A stretch of DNA of 39,059 nt from a virus. Both the position numbers and the translations under genes were made by a program. The stretch lies in UHGV virus genome UHGV-0140603; one strand, 5' to 3'. Shown piece by piece: positions 3,122-34,019 of this stretch. The notes beneath the pieces were generated by a model. That model was not told the DNA's origin. It worked only from the letters and a program-made list of their open reading frames with translations, and made no database searches. Position 1 is the first letter of the stretch. Every line of letters starts with the position of its first letter.

Positions 3122-3419
3122 GTTTAGACCTCGATACTTTGAAAATTTGAACGACGTTACCGCGCGTTTTAATAACCGCAGCAAGCATGACAGCGTTGAT
3201 AATGACCTCAGATAAATCAGCTACCATTGGCGTACGAAACCAGATTGCATAGGCGACGCGAACAGGAATACTTGCCGCAGCAACAATCAGGAAATAAGCA
3301 AGCCACCCACCCCATCTTCGGTGTTGGGATCCGTTACGCCGGAATGTAACAACGCGAACTGCAATGCCAGTACAAATAACTGCATTGGTGATAAGCAAAA
3401 AAAGCTCATGAGTTACCAT
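3111..3419 (-). CDS. Holin or antiholin-like small membrane protein
   Basis: 102 aa, two to three hydrophobic helices, immediately upstream of and overlapping the endolysin start. Confidence 0.5.
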
Positions 3420-3810
3420 CGTCTTTTCTCCCCGGAATTAAGTCGCGTGGATTATCGGAGCGGTGATAGAGCCATATTCCAATACGCACTGCTACAATCG
3501 CTGACACGAATGCGCCAGCAGAGAAGACAACCCCTTTCTCGAAAGAATCCTGCGTAATGGTGGGGATTAGACTGGCTATGCCTATAAGAATTGATGCTGT
3601 TGGTTTGTAAAAGAGAAGACCACAAAGAAAGCTGAGTATCGACAAGAGTACACGACGACGAACAGGATACTCTACAGCAGAGGTAACAAAAATTACCGAA
3701 CCAGAGAGTGAACCCAATGCAACTTCAGGTGGAACACCAGCAAGTACCGATACAAGCGAACACGCACTAAGATATTGATTTAAAGAAAAACTTGTAAATT
3801 GCAATGACAT
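3406..3810 (-). CDS. Holin-like membrane protein, first gene of the lysis cassette
   Basis: Multiple TM segments; track ORF starts with TTG at 3831, ATG at 3810 has a GGTGA SD; overlaps the next lysis gene. Confidence 0.5.
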   Translation of the reverse strand: MSLQFTSFSLNQYLSACSLVSVLAGVPPEVALGSLSGSVIFVTSAVEYPVRRRVLLSILSFLCGLLFYKPTASILIGIASLIPTITQDSFEKGVVFSAGAFVSAIVAVRIGIWLYHRSDNPRDLIPGRKDDGNS

Positions 3811-3990
3811 AAAAGTCACCATTTTTATCAATCAAACACAAATTCAATTCATGAATTCACCGCCTCAATTAAACCATATTTGGTTTGCTCTTGCCTAGTG
3901 TCATTATTATTTATATAGTGACATACCAACTTTCAAATTATAATTTATATATTTTAGGATCAAACCCAATACATTTTAAAAGGTGTAACA

Positions 3991-4830
3991 ATGGAATCTA
4001 ATGCACTAAAAAAAGCACGACTATTTATAAATGACATAAAATATTGTGTTGAAAACTTTAATATCGATTCAACTTTATATACCGCTTTCAAGCCAAGTGA
4101 TATTGGTGTTAAAGGAGATGAAAGCAATACAATATATGTTGCTGACGGTAAGCTTCCGGAAAAACTGATAATTGCTTTTGGAGAAAAGGCAAAAGACAGT
4201 AAAATATTTATTGGAAAAAATGTAAAATGCAGGGGATCGAGAATTGTAATAACTCACGGTGAAAGCCTTTGTTACATCGGAAATAACTCACAACTAAATA
4301 ATGTAACTATGCATATATGGTGCAAATGGGATTTTGTAGTGGTTGGAGAAGGTGTATCAGTTACCTCAACAAGTAATTGGACTACTGGAATAAACCCTGG
4401 CAATCCTTGTAACGGCATTATTATTGGTGATCACTGCCTTATGAGCCAAGAAATATCTATTAGACCTGCAGATGGACACCAAATTATCGAACTCACCACG
4501 CGAAAAGTAGTCAACGCTGCAACATCACCTATTATAATCGAACCATATTGCTGGATCGGACAGCGCACAGCAATACTAAAAAATGTAAGAATTGGTGCAT
4601 GCTCCATCGTTTCACTTGGTGCTGTAGTTACAAAATCATGTAAAAAATTCAGTGCGCTAAGTGGCGTACCAGCCAAAGCAAGATGCATTGAAGGAAAAAT
4701 GTGGCTAAGAAACAATGGGGAAGAAGCCAAGAGAATAATGCTTATGTATGAAAAAAGATTTGCAGGCACAGCAGCACAGCAGCACAGCAGCACAGCAGCA
4801 CAGCAGCACAGCAGCACAGCAGCACAGTGA
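3991..4830 (+). CDS. Hexapeptide-repeat (left-handed beta-helix) acetyltransferase, candidate O-antigen/polysaccharide acetylase
   Basis: Hexapeptide-like repeats (IGDHCLMSQEISI, IGQRTAILKNVRIGACSIVSLGAVV); AT-rich; opposite strand to the late operon; own AT-rich upstream region with SD aaaaggtg. Confidence 0.65.
   Translation: MESNALKKARLFINDIKYCVENFNIDSTLYTAFKPSDIGVKGDESNTIYVADGKLPEKLIIAFGEKAKDSKIFIGKNVKCRGSRIVITHGESLCYIGNNSQLNNVTMHIWCKWDFVVVGEGVSVTSTSNWTTGINPGNPCNGIIIGDHCLMSQEISIRPADGHQIIELTTRKVVNAATSPIIIEPYCWIGQRTAILKNVRIGACSIVSLGAVVTKSCKKFSALSGVPAKARCIEGKMWLRNNGEEAKRIMLMYEKRFAGTAAQQHSSTAAQQHSSTAAQ
4767..4827 (+). repeat. Octanucleotide tandem repeat (cacagcag) ~7.6 copies at the 3' end of the acetyltransferase gene
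   Basis: Seven perfect 8-bp units 4767-4822 plus partial unit; encodes (AAQQHSST)n tail; stop TGA follows at 4828. Confidence 0.9.
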
Positions 4831-4843
4831 TATAATTATAATA

Positions 4844-4864
4844 ATGGCCGTAATGCGCGGCCAT
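4844..4864. terminator. Bidirectional terminator between convergent acetyltransferase and tailspike genes
   Basis: 7-bp stem atggccg/cggccat with 7-nt loop, flanked by A/T runs on both sides. Confidence 0.5.
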
Positions 4865-4885
4865 TACATATTATTTATTATAGCA

Positions 4886-7800
4886 TTAACTTATTAGATC
4901 CGCTATTTTCTTTTCTTGATATGCCATCCTTATTATTTCAAATTCATCCATACGCATCATGTAAATAGATCTTGTCAATACCAAATTTCCATGTTTATCT
5001 TCTTTAATTTCATCTGCACCTTCTATTAATTTAATAATCCCAAATTCATTAACTGGAATTGGACAAGACTCAATATCAATAGGATAAAAATCACCAGATC
5101 CGTTTTCTCTTACCAAAACACTGGTTTCTTCATACGTAATAAGACCATACTTCTTCCAATCAAGACCAGCTTTTGTAATTGCATCCTTAACTTGCTGCGC
5201 TACAACTCCAAAATGATATCTGGCATGTTCACTTCCTTTTCGTAATATTTCATCCTTCATCTTCCACATTTGAAATTTTACACTACCCACGGCTTCAATA
5301 AGTTCAGTCGGTATATCCGAGAATTCATCTTTGTAATTAACATCTGAAACAACAGTGACAGCATTCTTGCTATATATGTTATTCCAGTATGCTGTCGTTG
5401 TACCATTATTAACTGTTCCTATCTGCCCTGTGGGAGCAAAATAAGGATTATCATTAACTGGATTAGCTATCTCGACAAGAACTTGAGTACCGCCAAAGCT
5501 CCCGCCAGGGAACATACGAAACCTGTTTGGTAAGCGATAGTCATTAGAACCATAAGCATTCCAGCCAGCCCCATTTTCTACAGTACCACGACACCTAAAT
5601 TCAACAACTTCTTGTATCTGCGGTGTTACATCATATCCACCACGTATAGACCAGTACTTATTATTGTCAGATTCTCTGCGGGAATCATGAACACGAAAAG
5701 CACCATTACTAGCATACTGAATGGCTTTTTTATATTCTGAAGTATTTTCTGAATACCCCCCCAATATCCAGTTCTCTCCTAATTTAAAGGAAACATCAAA
5801 AGCAGAACTTATAGAAGAAAGTGGTGAGTTATTAACACGAGTTGTCAAGGCGGAATTCAATGGTAGTTCATTAGCAACCCCACGCGATTGTGAAATAAGA
5901 AATATCTGTTTTCCTCGTTTCGAATACACTCCATCGCTGTACTTTTTATCATTCGAGTATTCCCCACCACTAACTTTATTTGTTATCGCCCACATTCTAA
6001 ATCCATCGGGATCATCAGGAGCAATACCAGAAGCAGTAGAAAAAGCGGAATAATTCTTTCCTTTGTAAGTTATAATAGATGCTCCAGAATCCCAATTATC
6101 CATAGTTAGAATAATAAGGTCTCCTTCATACATATCTATACCTTCAGGTTCAAATGAATGGGGGGTCCCATACTTTGGATTATCCATAAGATTTTTGTAT
6201 CCATAAAGAGAACGAGCCCCCTCAAATGAAAATTCAGCAAGAATATTACCAGAATAATCAAACTTCTGAATAATATGCAACATGAACGGATGTGTATATC
6301 CCCTTAATATATAGATGTACTTACCATCACTGGCAACATCTTGAATAACATGAGTATCAGTTCCGCGCTGCGGATGTGGAATCCTGAAATAATACAATGG
6401 TCTTGCGTCCAAACTATTGTCAAGGGATTCTACGTGTATCCTGCTGTAAACAAATACATACCAGGCATCATCATCTGCTGTGCTATCAGTTGCAACAAGA
6501 ACAACATACCTTCCATCTGAAGATACACACGGGGTTGCTGAATTATAATTCTGATAAGGATGACCAGAACCAGAATATCCAAAAAGCTGATAAGTAATCA
6601 CATCAGATTCAGATGTGCTGCTCCCTTTCCAAATTAATTTTGAATAACCTTTTCCTCCATCATTTCCTCGATATGTAGGCTGGGTAACCATTTGGGTATA
6701 AATAAAAAGGTCATCATCAATAACTATCGTAGATATTCCCTGATGGTTATTTAATATTGGTGCAGTGTAAGTAGTATTTTGCACTACTGAACCATCATCA
6801 GAAAACGAGTATTCAACCAGCCTGCGCTTCTCTAAAGCAGCTGCTGTTCCTGTACCCCCCCCTGGACCATTCGCCGTAAATCGTACACCAATATTATTTT
6901 CAGCAGCCCCTATAGTTGTAAAATCAGTTGAACCTATACTTACTATTTCATATTCAATTCCGGTTATGAAGTCACCAGCTGATGTTACTTTAGAGTTGAA
7001 GTTTCCACTACCTTCAGCACTGCCAACAACCGTTTGTAAAATAAATAATTTTTTACCATTATAATTCGCATAAGCACACCCTTGACTTGTAGCCTCACCA
7101 TTTGGAAAAACTTGGGACTCACCAAAACCCATAAATGCTTCCATTAAATGGCGTTGCACCAATGTATTACTGATATTATTACGAAGAGAAAGTAGATGAC
7201 CAGTTTTGGAAAGAATCATCCCTTCCCCTGTCATTTTGCTTACATCTACTTTCAACGTATCAACAAGATATACTCCAGGTGGAACATAAGCATTTTCAGG
7301 AGCCAGAATAAAAGAATTCGTATCATCAGTTATACCATCTCCAACAGCAGCATAATCTTTCACACTTACTGTATCACGCATCTTATCCTGGAACGTTCTG
7401 TATACAGCTCCAGCACCATACTGGATAAACCATCCGAAACCACCGACAACACCAGCAATTGCAGCATCCACATACTTACGCATTGAACGATTATTTACAG
7501 CGTCCTGCTCAAGTGATGGATCTGCAAGGTTAGAAATTTTGTTTTGCTTTGCATCGTAATATTTTGCAAGCAGCGAGGGCTTCATCAATGCACGTCTGAA
7601 CCACCCAAAACATCGCTGGATCAGCATCGTCAGGTAGTCGAATGCATCCTCATGAACTTCGGGGAAAAATTTTCCCTGATTGCGAAGATCAGTCTCCTGC
7701 ACCACATCAAGCACACGCTCTATCGTAATTCGCCAGCCAGCAGCAAGCGGCGACGGAAGAACCACTTCACCGCCACTATAAGTGCCCGCTCCAGTTACCT

Positions 7801-7960
7801 TATAACCGGTATCAAGCACCAATTCTGTTACGTTCCCGTTCAGATCAGACACCTGAACAACCAGGTCGGATTTTTTGAAAATACGGAAGGTATACGGAAA
7901 TGATGTCGTAACTCCGTTACCGGTGTATTCGTTGTGGTCAACTTCGGTTGAGACCGTCAT
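4886..7960 (-). CDS. Tailspike protein with T7 gp17-like N-terminal particle-binding domain
   Basis: N-terminus YTGNGVTTSFPYTFRIF resembles the tail-fibre adaptor domain; 1024 aa; C-terminal two thirds AT-rich. Confidence 0.8.
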   Translation of the reverse strand: MTVSTEVDHNEYTGNGVTTSFPYTFRIFKKSDLVVQVSDLNGNVTELVLDTGYKVTGAGTYSGGEVVLPSPLAAGWRITIERVLDVVQETDLRNQGKFFPEVHEDAFDYLTMLIQRCFGWFRRALMKPSLLAKYYDAKQNKISNLADPSLEQDAVNNRSMRKYVDAAIAGVVGGFGWFIQYGAGAVYRTFQDKMRDTVSVKDYAAVGDGITDDTNSFILAPENAYVPPGVYLVDTLKVDVSKMTGEGMILSKTGHLLSLRNNISNTLVQRHLMEAFMGFGESQVFPNGEATSQGCAYANYNGKKLFILQTVVGSAEGSGNFNSKVTSAGDFITGIEYEIVSIGSTDFTTIGAAENNIGVRFTANGPGGGTGTAAALEKRRLVEYSFSDDGSVVQNTTYTAPILNNHQGISTIVIDDDLFIYTQMVTQPTYRGNDGGKGYSKLIWKGSSTSESDVITYQLFGYSGSGHPYQNYNSATPCVSSDGRYVVLVATDSTADDDAWYVFVYSRIHVESLDNSLDARPLYYFRIPHPQRGTDTHVIQDVASDGKYIYILRGYTHPFMLHIIQKFDYSGNILAEFSFEGARSLYGYKNLMDNPKYGTPHSFEPEGIDMYEGDLIILTMDNWDSGASIITYKGKNYSAFSTASGIAPDDPDGFRMWAITNKVSGGEYSNDKKYSDGVYSKRGKQIFLISQSRGVANELPLNSALTTRVNNSPLSSISSAFDVSFKLGENWILGGYSENTSEYKKAIQYASNGAFRVHDSRRESDNNKYWSIRGGYDVTPQIQEVVEFRCRGTVENGAGWNAYGSNDYRLPNRFRMFPGGSFGGTQVLVEIANPVNDNPYFAPTGQIGTVNNGTTTAYWNNIYSKNAVTVVSDVNYKDEFSDIPTELIEAVGSVKFQMWKMKDEILRKGSEHARYHFGVVAQQVKDAITKAGLDWKKYGLITYEETSVLVRENGSGDFYPIDIESCPIPVNEFGIIKLIEGADEIKEDKHGNLVLTRSIYMMRMDEFEIIRMAYQEKKIADLIS

Positions 7961-33222: not shown

Positions 33223-34019
33223 GCTTCAGGGCTGTTCCAGTGCGGAACGTTGTTATCAGGTAATGTTGATTGCTTCTGTCTGCTAATCTGCAGCCGCCTT
33301 GCCAGCTTCTGCTCCCACTGTGCCTGATGGTATGCCTTACCCTCAGCCATCCAGTAAATTCTGAACTCTGCAAGTTCCTGTGCCGTTGGCAGACTGTCCA
33401 GGTAGATCCCCTGCAATGAGCTTTTCCGAAGAAAGTCATCTGATGGCTGCCATTGTTCATGCATGACAAATTTTCCTAATTGCCCTGGCCCACCAGGAGG
33501 AACAAAGTTATTCATCACGGCGTTGTTTGCTCCGGGGTCATGAGGCACAGAATCCCCGCTTTTTGTCCTGCTCTCCCTCTCTTGGTTAAATGACTGGTTA
33601 TATGACTGGTTCTGGATCCCGTTTTTGGGATCATTCAACATCCCGTTTTTGGGATCATTCAACATCCCGTTTTTGGGTATATTCCCGTTTTCGGGAACAT
33701 TACCGTTTTCGGGTTCATTACGTCCTTCTAGGTTGCCTTTAATGTTCCCTTTTTTGGTTATATTAAGAGAGAAAACCCGCACTCTTTTCGTCGCTCCCTT
33801 TCTCTCTCCGGTATCTGAAATAAGCCCCATTTTCATGAGCGATATAAGCCCGGCCTGCACGGTTTTTTTATTCAGGCAAGTGTCTTTAACGAGGCGTTCT
33901 ATGCTGGGGTAGCAGAGGTTATATTCATCGGCTCTGTCAGCCATCGAGAGCAGTATGAGCTTTAATGACGAGCTACCTGGATCTGTCTCCCAGGCCCAAT
34001 CTGTTGCATGTCTGCTCAT
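33204..34019 (-). CDS. Replication initiator (O-like) with internal iteron-encoded peptide repeats
   Basis: N-terminal HTH-like domain; central ENGNVPENGNIPKNGMLNDPKNGMLNDPKNG repeats; directly upstream of the P-like gene. Confidence 0.6.
   Translation of the reverse strand: MSRHATDWAWETDPGSSSLKLILLSMADRADEYNLCYPSIERLVKDTCLNKKTVQAGLISLMKMGLISDTGERKGATKRVRVFSLNITKKGNIKGNLEGRNEPENGNVPENGNIPKNGMLNDPKNGMLNDPKNGIQNQSYNQSFNQERESRTKSGDSVPHDPGANNAVMNNFVPPGGPGQLGKFVMHEQWQPSDDFLRKSSLQGIYLDSLPTAQELAEFRIYWMAEGKAYHQAQWEQKLARRLQISRQKQSTLPDNNVPHWNSPEAWEDFL
33614..33721. repeat. Origin-like iterons (about five direct repeats with core cccgttttYggg) followed by an AT-rich tract
   Basis: Repeats at ~33614, 33638, 33661, 33683, 33702; AT-rich 33730-33775; inside the initiator gene as in lambda ori. 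Confidence 0.6.

What the first reader, a model, noticed from the sequence alone, without database searches (positions are those of the whole stretch)
4767..4830. 8-bp tandem repeat forming the 3' end of the acetyltransferase gene
About 7.6 copies of cacagcag end exactly at the stop codon, encoding (AAQQHSST)n. An 8-bp unit changes reading frame with every copy gained or lost, the usual substrate for slipped-strand phase variation, and octanucleotide arrays are uncommon in enterobacterial genes. Because it is at the extreme C-terminus, slippage would change the tail rather than switch the enzyme off, so a role in stability or localisation is as plausible as on/off switching.
Basis: partly seen in the sequence, partly recalled or inferred. 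Interest (0 to 1): 0.6.

Follow-up and report, generated by a model that had tools for sequence, protein, structure and literature searches.

The report
Hypervariable repeat tail on prophage capsule acetyltransferase
A perfect 8-base repeat at the end of a prophage gene is real and changes length very fast between E. coli strains; the gene is a NeuO-like capsule O-acetyltransferase found only in strains with one rare ribitol-phosphate capsule type, which makes it a strong candidate for the unidentified enzyme that turns the K22 capsule into K18.

Summary
Window 4766-4827 is a perfect (GCACAGCA)x7.75 array ending at the TGA of ORF 3991-4830.

Across otherwise ≥99.7%-identical loci the array runs from about 2 to 52.75 copies. 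Two near-clonal isolates differ by exactly one unit. All three reading frames occur.

The window's 62 bp is probably an assembly floor (k=55 collapse). Long-read genomes carry 23-53 copies.

The gene encodes a NeuO/OatWY-like left-handed beta-helix O-acetyltransferase with the catalytic His and Trp conserved. It sits in the phiV10 'oac' slot, between the lysis genes and the tailspike of a phiV10/epsilon15-like prophage.

All 11 of 5,426 complete E. coli genomes that carry it belong to the 19 with one TagF-like polymerase/CDP-ribitol-synthase kps locus. That synthase is identical by MD5 to the K18_K22 reference. The locus has no acetyltransferase of its own, and a 2026 paper names this as an open question.

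Slippage never truncates the enzyme. Each unit adds 2⅔ residues of a disordered (AAQQHSST)n tail and rotates between three C-terminal endings. This is a new variant of the neuO/CUS-3 "mobile contingency locus". The functional effect of the tail is inferred, not shown.

The parts
3409..3831 (-). Holin-like membrane protein, last gene of the lysis cassette (left border of the moron slot)
   Evidence: Pfam Phage_holin_8, E 2.5e-11. The same gene order occurs in phiV10: membrane protein/holin/endolysin/Rz upstream of oac.
3832..3990 (+). AT-rich (27.7% GC) upstream region of the acetyltransferase gene, with a promoter-like site at 3891-3919 and a Shine-Dalgarno AGGTG at 3981-3985
   Evidence: GC values. 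TTGCCT-17-TATAGT is a 9/12 match and no better than shuffled sequence. The SD was read from the sequence. Promoter function is not shown.
3991..4830 (+). NeuO/OatWY-like left-handed beta-helix O-acetyltransferase gene (279 aa as assembled; core = residues 1-258)
   Evidence: PDB phmmer: NeuO 3JQY E 2.7e-18, OatWY 2WLC E 6.8e-6. NeuO His147/Trp171 align with His163/Trp188, and both are invariant in 43 homologues. AF2 pLDDT 91.8. Foldseek top hits are NeuO and OatWY. GC is 36.5% against 48.1% for the window.
4766..4827 (+). Perfect octanucleotide array (GCACAGCA)x7.75 encoding (AAQQHSST)n; hypermutable, and its length here is probably collapsed by assembly
   Evidence: There is no stop codon in any of the six frames, and the peptide repeat is the same in all three + frames. 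The tail residues 262-279 have pLDDT <50.
4828..4830 (+). Stop codon TGA used when array length mod 3 = 2 (ending -AQ)
4833..4835 (+). Alternative stop TAA used when array length mod 3 = 0 (ending -TVI)
   Evidence: Seen in MLI121 and P0063; simulated.
4895..4897 (+). Alternative stop TAG used when array length mod 3 = 1. It adds the 22-residue hydrophobic stretch DIIIIMAVMRGHYILFIIALTY (ending ...HSDIIIIMAVMRGHYILFIIALTY), reads through the terminator and overlaps the end of the tailspike gene
   Evidence: ORF 4748-4897. Seen in SW070919 and P0066. Mean Kyte-Doolittle value +1.75 against -1.11 for the repeat.
4842..4866 (.). GC-rich hairpin between the convergent acetyltransferase and tailspike genes (terminator-like)
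   Evidence: 10-bp stem, 5 GC pairs, T-rich tail.
4886..7960 (-). Tailspike (1024 aa): conserved epsilon15/phiV10-type N-terminal anchor, unique central domain, C-terminal Peptidase_S74 chaperone
   Evidence: Pfam, PDB, PHROGs. The central domain (5800-6699) occurs in only 5 of 5,426 genomes, and all 5 have the same capsule polymerase.

Best explanation
The array is a hypermutable simple-sequence repeat (a contingency-type VNTR) built into the 3' end of a lysogenic-conversion gene. The gene is a cytoplasmic, acetyl-CoA-dependent NeuO-like O-acetyltransferase. It is carried by a phiV10/epsilon15-like prophage in the slot next to the tailspike, and it most likely O-acetylates the host's ribose-ribitol-phosphate group 2 capsule (K18_K22-type kps locus), converting K22-like polymer into K18-like polymer. 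That would change antigenicity and probably block phages that use the same capsule as receptor. Slipped-strand mispairing gains or loses 8-bp units. Because the catalytic core lies upstream, this never truncates the enzyme. Each step lengthens or shortens a disordered (AAQQHSST)n C-terminal tail by 2⅔ residues and rotates among three C-terminal endings: two short, and one hydrophobic stretch of 22 residues. In a second allele family the endings are one short, one hydrophobic and one 62-residue read-through. I infer that this produces graded and three-state variation in enzyme activity, stability or membrane association, and hence in the degree of capsule acetylation within a lysogen population. 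This would be a C-terminal counterpart of NeuO's N-terminal poly-psi domain. Shown: the repeat, its hypervariability, the three endings, the enzyme family, the prophage slot and the exclusive association with one capsule locus. Inferred: the substrate, the K22-to-K18 conversion and any effect of the tail on function.
For: The array is perfect and ends at the stop codon. Copy number runs from about 2 to 52.75 in loci with 0-18 mismatches per 2.4 kb upstream. MLI121 and MLI114 have 0/3,989 flank mismatches but arrays of 342 and 350 bp, and both were Trycycler long-read consensus assemblies (PMC10198576). All three frames occur in long-read genomes, and the 90% protein cluster holds 125 distinct sequences, mostly tail variants. 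The enzyme family is supported by NeuO E 2.7e-18 with conserved His163/Trp188, an AF2 model and Foldseek hits to NeuO/OatWY, and a tail with pLDDT <50. The gene occupies the same slot as phiV10 oac, annotated 'acetylates the host O-antigen; superinfection immunity'. Homologues in Pantoea, Aeromonas, Castellaniella and a metagenome lie inside ABC-transporter capsule loci next to TagF-like polymerases. All 11 carrier genomes have kpsC. All 11 are also among the only 19 of 5,426 genomes with one TagF-like polymerase gene (Fisher p 2.5e-29; 2.4e-19 with the five EC0026B derivatives collapsed to one). That kps locus has no acetyltransferase. Its 485-aa CDP-ribitol synthase has the MD5 of K18_K22_8. 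PMC13171606 states that K18 is acetylated K22, that the clusters are identical, and that the acetyltransferase is presumably outside the locus. As precedent, NeuO activity rises linearly with the number of repeat-encoded heptads (PMC3046976).
Against: There is no functional data of any kind: substrate, activity and the effect of the tail are all inferred. The commonest allele (P0057, 71 contigs) has no array (…ADTADSSTAK*), so the tail is dispensable and could be neutral. The (AAQQHSST)n tail carries no charge pattern that would suggest polymer binding, unlike NeuO's RLKTQDS. The hydrophobic ending is simply the translation of AT-rich terminator DNA. The host polymerase (1107 aa) does not have the MD5 of K18_K22_9 or of K100_9, so the K type is 'K18_K22-type or very close', not proven. 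The K18 and K22 reference genomes could not be searched. Copy numbers from short-read assemblies, including the window's, are unreliable. One-unit differences rest on assemblies, not on reads.
Confidence: 0.6

Rival explanations
1. Neutral, tolerated microsatellite. A proto-repeat at a permissive C-terminus expanded by slippage. The tail and its three endings have no effect on the enzyme and are not under selection.
For: The repeat-less allele is the commonest (P0057, 71 contigs). Relatives at ≤72% identity have no repeat. NeuO tolerates a C-terminal His-tag (PMC3046976). The same 8-mer forms arrays in 24 unrelated genomes, so it is an intrinsically slippage-prone unit. The tail is predicted disordered.
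Against: Arrays are long (23-53 copies, adding about 60-140 residues) and perfectly homogeneous in four independent lineages. The closest characterised relative of the enzyme independently carries a non-triplet VNTR with a proven effect on activity. A hydrophobic stretch of 22 residues or a 62-residue read-through extension is unlikely to be without effect on a trimeric enzyme whose C-terminal strand and helix form the trimer interface (PMC3046976).
Confidence: 0.3
2. True ON/OFF phase variation. One or two of the three frames (the hydrophobic or read-through endings) destabilise, aggregate or mislocalise the enzyme, so acetylation switches off in about 1/3 to 2/3 of slippage states.
For: Each unit step rotates through the three endings. 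Variant B alleles include a 62-residue nonsense extension translated antisense to the tailspike gene (PAR, P0001, P0064-67). All frames are found in nature, as for neuO, where 66% of complete genomes are OFF (PMC13001214).
Against: The catalytic core and the C-terminal helix (residues 244-258) are always made. Nothing shows that the long endings inactivate the enzyme. Four of the six genome-derived variant-A alleles (the window plus five complete genomes) are in the short -AQ frame, but two of those four (the window and AST205) are probably collapsed arrays, and the number is too small to test.
Confidence: 0.2
3. The enzyme modifies the O-antigen (as phiV10 Oac does) or another glycan, not the capsule. 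The association with the capsule type reflects shared clonal background.
For: The phiV10 slot carries an O-antigen acetyltransferase. Several carriers are ST484. One homologue lies in a flagellar glycosylation-like context and one in a non-capsule context.
Against: Carriers span at least ST484 (phylogroup A) and ST349, plus PAR and SW070919 (ST and serotype not determined), with two different tailspikes. There are 0 carriers among 5,407 genomes lacking this polymerase. LbH enzymes are cytoplasmic, like NeuO. Five of the seven homologue contexts examined lie beside TagF-like capsule polymerases: four are complete ABC-transporter capsule loci and the fifth (P0002) is a 6.7-kb fragment with Glyphos_transf and a CDP-ribitol-synthase-like gene. 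The type-1 tailspike is likewise confined to this capsule type.
Confidence: 0.1
4. The array is an assembly artefact and does not exist in the organism.
For: 62 = 55+7 and 134 = 127+7 are collapse lengths, and many contigs break in the array.
Against: Collapse requires a real array longer than k. Long-read and Trycycler assemblies show 183-422 bp of perfect repeats flanked by the same unique sequence.
Confidence: 0.01

Closest known systems
neuO on prophage CUS-3 of E. coli K1 (the 'mobile contingency locus'; poly-psi VNTR)
   Same: A prophage-borne LbH capsule O-acetyltransferase next to a capsule-specific tailspike. It is the closest solved homologue (E 2.7e-18, catalytic His/Trp conserved). 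It has an in-frame non-triplet VNTR, with 2-93 copies there and about 2-53 here. Three DNA units encode one peptide repeat that is read identically in all frames. The peptide domain is disordered. The element is confined to hosts with one group 2 capsule type. The repeat-less enzyme exists.
   Different: neuO has a 7-bp unit AAGACTC at the 5' end, two nucleotides after the ATG, so two of three frames truncate the protein (ON/OFF). Here an 8-bp unit GCACAGCA lies at the 3' end, so the core is always made and only the tail length and ending change. The phage backbone differs (P22-like versus phiV10/epsilon15-like). The capsule differs (polysialic acid versus a ribitol-phosphate type). The peptide is uncharged (AAQQHSST versus RLKTQDS). 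Protein identity is only about 35% over 177 residues.
phiV10 Oac (O157 O-antigen acetyltransferase, superinfection immunity)
   Same: The phage backbone matches (97% identity over about 88% of the 22-kb query, window 8000-30000). The genomic slot and orientation are identical: between the lysis cassette and the tailspike, convergent with the tailspike. The role as a receptor-modifying moron is presumably the same.
   Different: phiV10 Oac is a 338-aa acyltransferase-3 type integral membrane protein acting on the O-antigen, with no repeat array. The window's gene is an unrelated soluble LbH enzyme.
In-locus capsule O-acetyltransferases of TagF-like (teichoic-acid-like) group 2 capsule loci (for example P0018 Pantoea, P0009 Aeromonas caviae, P0002)
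   Same: They are orthologue-level relatives (51-71% identity, the same length up to residue ~258) and lie adjacent to TagF-like polymerases and CDP-ribitol synthase genes.
   Different: They are chromosomal, inside kps-like region 2, and none has a repeat tail. None is experimentally characterised, as far as these tools show.
Classical simple-sequence-repeat contingency loci (Haemophilus, Neisseria, Campylobacter)
   Same: A perfect intragenic repeat with a unit not divisible by 3, and strain-to-strain copy-number polymorphism in a surface-modification gene.
   Different: Those repeats usually sit in the 5' coding region or the promoter and switch expression on and off. Here the position is 3'-terminal and the outcome is a choice among alternative C-termini.

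Membership tests
Hexapeptide/LbH acyltransferases, NeuO-OatWY subgroup | Left-handed beta-helix fold built from hexapeptide repeats | tested here: met
   AF2 model pLDDT 91.8, beta-rich core. Foldseek top hits are NeuO 3JQY (E 5e-11) and OatWY 2WLG (TMt 0.85). The Pfam Hexapep hit (22.1 bits) is below the 27-bit cut-off.
Hexapeptide/LbH acyltransferases, NeuO-OatWY subgroup | Catalytic His and Trp (NeuO His147/Trp171 in 3JQY numbering) | tested here: met
   They align with His163 and Trp188. Both are invariant in the 43-sequence family alignment.
Hexapeptide/LbH acyltransferases, NeuO-OatWY subgroup | Acetyl-CoA-dependent O-acetylation of a capsule polymer; homotrimer | not testable with these tools
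   Needs enzyme assays and oligomer analysis.
Simple-sequence-repeat contingency (phase-variable) locus | Perfect tandem repeat, unit not a multiple of 3, inside the ORF | tested here: met
   8-bp unit, 100% matches, inside ORF 3991-4830.
Simple-sequence-repeat contingency (phase-variable) locus | Copy number differs between closely related strains | tested here: met
   342 versus 350 bp in MLI121 and MLI114 with identical flanks; 134-422 bp among loci differing at ≤2/3,989 flank positions.
Simple-sequence-repeat contingency (phase-variable) locus | High-frequency reversible variation within one clonal population | not testable with these tools
   No read-level data. The five EC0026B laboratory derivatives carry the repeat-less allele and are uninformative.
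Simple-sequence-repeat contingency (phase-variable) locus | Frameshift switches the gene product on and off | tested here: not met
   In all frames residues 1-258 are unchanged and only the tail and ending differ. Whether an ending inactivates the enzyme is unknown.
neuO poly-psi VNTR | Heptanucleotide AAGACTC array 2 nt after the start codon | tested here: not met
   The array here is the octanucleotide GCACAGCA at the 3' end (PMC3046976).
neuO poly-psi VNTR | Enzyme activity scales with the number of repeat-encoded peptide units | not testable with these tools
   Needs kinetics on recoded alleles.
phiV10-type receptor-modification moron | Gene located between the lysis cassette and the tailspike of a Uetakevirus-like prophage, on the opposite strand to both | tested here: met
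phiV10-type receptor-modification moron | Acyltransferase-3 membrane protein | tested here: not met
   The protein is a soluble LbH enzyme.
Hypothesised K18-specific capsule O-acetyltransferase | Encoded outside the kps locus, in strains whose K18_K22-type locus lacks an acetyltransferase | tested here: met
   EC0026B region 2 has three genes (polymerase, CDP-ribitol synthase, hypothetical) and no acetyltransferase. The gene lies on a prophage about 0.5 Mb away.
Hypothesised K18-specific capsule O-acetyltransferase | Host kps locus is the K18_K22 type | tested here: inconclusive
   The CDP-ribitol synthase MD5 equals K18_K22_8 and not K100_8. The polymerase has the same length (1107 aa) but its MD5 differs from both references.
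Hypothesised K18-specific capsule O-acetyltransferase | Present in K18a/K18ab reference strains and absent or inactive in the K22 strain | not testable with these tools
   GCA_977946865, GCA_977946875 and GCA_977947955 are not in the searchable collections.

The most novel reading that the evidence does not exclude
This prophage gene is the missing determinant that distinguishes E. coli K18 from K22, and perhaps underlies the unexplained K18a/K18ab distinction. Its 3' octanucleotide VNTR would be a new kind of contingency switch: it does not turn the enzyme off, but tunes it through tail length and a three-way choice of C-terminus, one of which may tether the enzyme to the membrane-bound capsule assembly machinery. 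The result would be heritable but rapidly reversible heterogeneity in capsule acetylation.
Probability: 0.3. Interest if true: 0.8.

Novelty: new variant of a known kind. Interest (0 to 1): 0.7.

Why it matters
There are three reasons.

1. It offers a concrete, testable candidate for an explicitly open question. PMC13171606 (2026) reports that the K18 and K22 capsule clusters are 100% identical and that the acetyltransferase must lie elsewhere. Identifying it would let in-silico K-typing separate these serotypes.

2. It would be only the second capsule O-acetyltransferase with a built-in VNTR after NeuO. It arose independently, at the opposite end of the protein, on a different phage backbone and for a chemically unrelated capsule. 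That argues that hypermutable acetylation is a recurrent strategy of capsule-targeting temperate phages.

3. A 3'-terminal non-triplet repeat that rotates alternative C-termini, rather than switching the gene off, is an under-appreciated mode of phase variation.

There is also a practical point. Short-read assemblies collapse this array to k+7 bases, so database alleles, including this window's, misreport both the copy number and the reading frame.

Tried and rejected
- **Phage records.** Megablast of the gene against 50,697 phage records found no match.
- **Other ribitol-phosphate loci.** Region-2 DNA beside homologue P0002 was searched against E. coli. It matched 51 genomes (the E. coli B type and others) but none of the carriers, so carriers do not have that particular ribitol-phosphate locus.
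- **Polymerase typing by MD5.** The MD5 of the host polymerase and of the 378-aa protein matched nothing in the kTYPr supplement. Region 1/3 MD5s and host assembly accessions are not in the held supplement text.
- **Independent test of k=55 collapse.** I tested whether the window's other 62-bp perfect repeat (33616-33677) is also collapsed. It has the same length in long-read genomes, so it says nothing either way.
- **Tailspike versus capsule-locus protein.** A BLASTP of the tailspike against the 301-aa Phage_RBD_prop-like protein of the Pantoea capsule locus was not significant (E 1.2-3.2).
- **Literature.** Searches for octanucleotide-repeat phase variation in E. coli, for the repeat or peptide strings, and for a K18 acetyltransferase found nothing relevant.
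- **Minus-strand ORFs.** The ORFs through the array, (LLCCCAAV)n at 4431-4817 and others, were treated as by-products of a stop-free repeat.
- **DNA- or RNA-level role for the tailspike.** I considered and rejected this, because the array lies beyond the shared hairpin relative to the tailspike gene.
Full report
**1. The observation.**
Window 4766-4827 is a 100%-perfect period-8 array (GCACAGCA, 7.75 copies, TRF score 124). It ties with the 24-bp repeat at 33616-33677 as the top-scoring tandem repeat in the window. It forms the last 62 nt before the TGA at 4828-4830 of ORF 3991-4830 (+ strand, 279 aa), whose product ends ...KRFAGTAAQQHSSTAAQQHSSTAAQ. Because 3 x 8 = 24, all three + frames of the array encode the same octapeptide repeat. 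No frame on either strand contains a stop.

**2. The copy number in the window is probably an assembly floor.**
- The exact 279-aa product is on record in 24+ contigs. Of ten examined, six end inside the array after 62-64 bp and four carry exactly 62 bp.
- For an array whose length is 6 mod 8, a de Bruijn assembler that goes once round the repeat cycle outputs k+((6-k) mod 8) bases. That gives 62 for k=55 and 134 for k=127.
- 134 bp is the length in the 'complete' genome AST205.
- Genomes assembled from long reads carry 183 bp (PAR), 342 (MLI121), 350 (MLI114), 406 (SW070919) and 422 bp (E100341). MLI114 and MLI121 are Trycycler consensus assemblies of ONT reads. E100341 is a Unicycler hybrid assembly.
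- The array is therefore real, but 7.75 copies should be read as 'at least'.

**3. Hypervariability.**
- Only 11 of 5,426 complete E. coli genomes carry the gene, all at ≥99% identity.
- Outside the array the loci are nearly identical: MLI121 versus MLI114 0/3,989 mismatches, MLI versus E100341 2/3,989, MLI versus AST205 1/3,989. Their arrays are 342, 350, 422 and 134 bp.
- MLI114 and MLI121 came from two soldiers and differ by 14 of 2,520 cgMLST alleles (PMC10198576). Their arrays differ by exactly one unit, which places them in different frames.
- The 90%-identity protein cluster contains 125 distinct sequences, mostly tail variants, and all named members are E. coli.
- The nearest relatives outside that cluster (≤72% identity) are 255-325 aa long and none has a repeat tail. 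The array is therefore a recent, lineage-specific acquisition.
- The commonest allele (P0057, 267 aa, 71 contigs; also in the five EC0026B derivatives) ends ...ADTADSSTAK*. Its DNA reads GCACAGCA-GACAGCA-GCACAGCG, that is, three units with a 1-nt deletion. This is either a proto-repeat or a 'locked' remnant.

**4. What slippage does to the protein.**
- With the window's downstream sequence (variant A), array length mod 3 = 2 gives -AQ* (TGA 4828-4830).
- Mod 3 = 0 gives -TVI* (TAA 4833-4835).
- Mod 3 = 1 gives -HSDIIIIMAVMRGHYILFIIALTY* (TAG 4895-4897). This frame reads through the hairpin at 4842-4866 and overlaps the end of the convergent tailspike gene.
- Adding one unit steps through TVI, then AQ, then the hydrophobic ending.
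- All three endings occur in long-read genomes: MLI121 (TVI); MLI114 and E100341 (AQ); SW070919 (hydrophobic).
- A second allele family (variant B, downstream ...CGAAATAA, linked to a different tailspike) gives -TAK*, a hydrophobic ending, or a 62-residue read-through (PAR, P0001, P0064-67).
- Residues 1-258 are untouched in every case. This is not a classical ON/OFF frameshift.

**5. The enzyme.**
- The best solved relatives are NeuO (3JQY, E 2.7e-18 over residues 66-242) and OatWY (2WLC).
- NeuO's catalytic His147 and Trp171 (PMC3046976) align with His163 and Trp188. Both are invariant in 43 homologues.
- An AlphaFold model (pLDDT 91.8) shows a beta-helix core and a C-terminal helix at 244-258. 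Residues 262-279, the repeat tail, have pLDDT <50.
- Foldseek ranks NeuO and OatWY first.
- In NeuO the C-terminal strand and helix form the trimer interface. The three C-termini lie close together at the narrow end of the trimer, where the presumed acetyl-CoA tunnels open (PMC3046976). A long or hydrophobic extension there could plausibly matter, but this is inference.

**6. Genomic setting.**
- The window is a phiV10/epsilon15-like (Uetakevirus) prophage: 97% identity over 88-91% of a 22-kb query (window 8000-30000) to phiv142-3, phiV10 and O157 typing phages 9 and 10.
- The gene has 36.5% GC against 48.1% for the window.
- It lies between the holin-like gene (3409-3831, minus strand) and the tailspike (4886-7960, minus strand).
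- In phiV10 this slot holds oac, annotated 'acetylates the host O-antigen; functions in superinfection immunity'.
- phiV10 Oac is an unrelated membrane acyltransferase. The slot is conserved but the cargo differs.

**7. The likely substrate.**
- Homologues in Pantoea anthophila, Aeromonas caviae, Castellaniella and a metagenome bin lie in region 2 of ABC-transporter capsule loci (kpsMT-, kpsCS- and kpsDE-like genes), directly beside TagF-like (Glyphos_transf) polymerases. The closest homologue (P0002, 71% identity) lies beside a TagF-like gene and a CDP-ribitol-synthase-like gene.
- To interrogate the carrier genomes I used composite queries, so that 'places_in_record' reported a second locus. 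All 11 carriers have kpsC, against about 31% of all genomes.
- In EC0026B the kps locus is kpsMT, then a TagF-like polymerase (1107 aa), a bifunctional cytidylyltransferase/SDR (CDP-ribitol synthase) and a 378-aa protein, then kpsSCUD. It has no acetyltransferase.
- A 600-bp piece of that polymerase gene occurs in only 19 of 5,426 genomes, and all 11 carriers are among them. No carrier lacks it (Fisher p 2.5e-29; 2.4e-19 with the five EC0026B derivatives counted once).
- Carriers include ST484 O7:H4 (E100341; EC0026B is also ST484) and ST349 (MLI114, MLI121), plus PAR and SW070919, whose ST and serotype I did not determine.
- The central domain of the window's tailspike occurs in 5 genomes, all of this capsule type.
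- Phage, tailspike, acetyltransferase and capsule type thus travel together, as do CUS-3, endosialidase, neuO and K1.

**8. Link to K18/K22.**
- PMC13171606 (Nat Microbiol 2026) reports that K18 is the O-acetylated form of K22. [quoted passage not shown]
- In that catalogue K18_K22 and K100 each have three region-2 genes, including a 485-aa CDP-ribitol synthase and a 1107-aa polymerase.
- Read from the upstream ATG, the EC0026B synthase is 485 aa. Its MD5 (acedf616...) equals that listed for K18_K22_8 and not that for K100_8.
- The polymerase has the right length, but its MD5 differs from both references. I therefore call the locus 'K18_K22-type or very close'.
- No paper in the searchable library names a K18 acetyltransferase or this repeat.

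**9. Mechanism and rivals.**
- Most likely, this is a mobile contingency locus of the neuO kind in a new configuration.
- In neuO a 5' heptanucleotide VNTR both gates translation and, when in frame, tunes activity in proportion to the number of RLKTQDS heptads (PMC3046976; PMC13001214).
- Here a 3' octanucleotide VNTR cannot gate translation. It can only change tail length and ending.
- I consider a modulatory effect on activity, stability or localisation the best reading (about 0.45 on its own; 0.6 for the whole package as stated).
- A neutral, tolerated microsatellite is the main rival (0.3). It is supported by the abundance of the repeat-less allele and by the occurrence of the same 8-mer array in 24 unrelated genomes.
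- A real ON/OFF switch through a destabilising ending is possible (0.2).
- An O-antigen target is unlikely (0.1).
- Non-existence of the array is excluded.

**10. Verdict.**
The feature is real, hypermutable and biologically well placed. It is a new variant of a known kind, not a new principle. It deserves attention for three reasons. It points to a specific answer to a stated open problem in E. coli capsule serology. It would be a second, independently evolved VNTR-bearing capsule acetyltransferase. And short-read assemblies systematically misreport it.

Noticed in passing
window 33583-33721: A cluster of perfect or near-perfect direct repeats (12-bp x2.4, 24-bp x2.6 spanning exactly 62 bp, 18-bp x3.1) lies inside a gene annotated in related genomes as a DnaT-like ssDNA-binding replication protein. 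It looks like phage origin iterons. The length is identical in long-read genomes, so it is not an assembly collapse.
   Followed up: partly
L039, L042, L050 and 21 other genome-contig loci: The same octanucleotide (GCACAGCA)n, with ≥5 perfect copies, occurs in 24 genomes of unrelated taxa (Paraburkholderia, Shewanella, Aeromonas caviae, Streptomyces, Puniceicoccales and others). In several it lies at codons 5-7 of long ORFs (524-943 aa), the classical position for ON/OFF contingency repeats.
   Followed up: no
L037 1778-2027 (IMGVR_UViG_2585427789_000028): In one isolate-derived prophage the array is split: 132 bp, then TGTGATAA, then a further 111 bp before the normal downstream flank. The first stop falls inside the array region. 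This is either a real rearrangement or a misassembly.
   Followed up: no
L007-L011 (EC0026B) about 2417-2445; P0057, P0059, P0062, P0001: Repeat-less alleles still vary by unit-sized indels: ...AGTADSSTAK, ...ADTADSSTAK and ...ADSSTAK. P0001 has lost the 7-bp unit and reads through for about 62 aa. Even the proto-repeat slips.
   Followed up: partly
L014 7091-7996 and L018 8051-8953: In the Pantoea and metagenome capsule loci a ~300-aa protein immediately precedes the acetyltransferase homologue. In Pantoea it has a faint hit to Pfam Phage_RBD_prop, the same family that the window's tailspike hits weakly (residues 509-611). Direct BLASTP between the two is not significant.
   Followed up: partly
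H1827/12, MS1170, MS1266, EC21Z-063, A3, A26, E300010, AST19: Eight complete genomes have the same rare capsule polymerase but no acetyltransferase. These are candidate 'K22-like' non-acetylated counterparts and natural controls.
   Followed up: no
L021 12606-14756 (E. coli BL21(DE3) kps region 2): E. coli B carries a different ribitol-phosphate-type region 2, in which the CDP-ribitol synthase gene is split by IS1 into separately annotated IspD/TarI and SDR pieces.
   Followed up: no
window 4766-4827: The array contains CAGCAG every 8 bp. From memory, this is the EcoP15I type III restriction site. All copies are in one orientation. Probably irrelevant.
   Followed up: no
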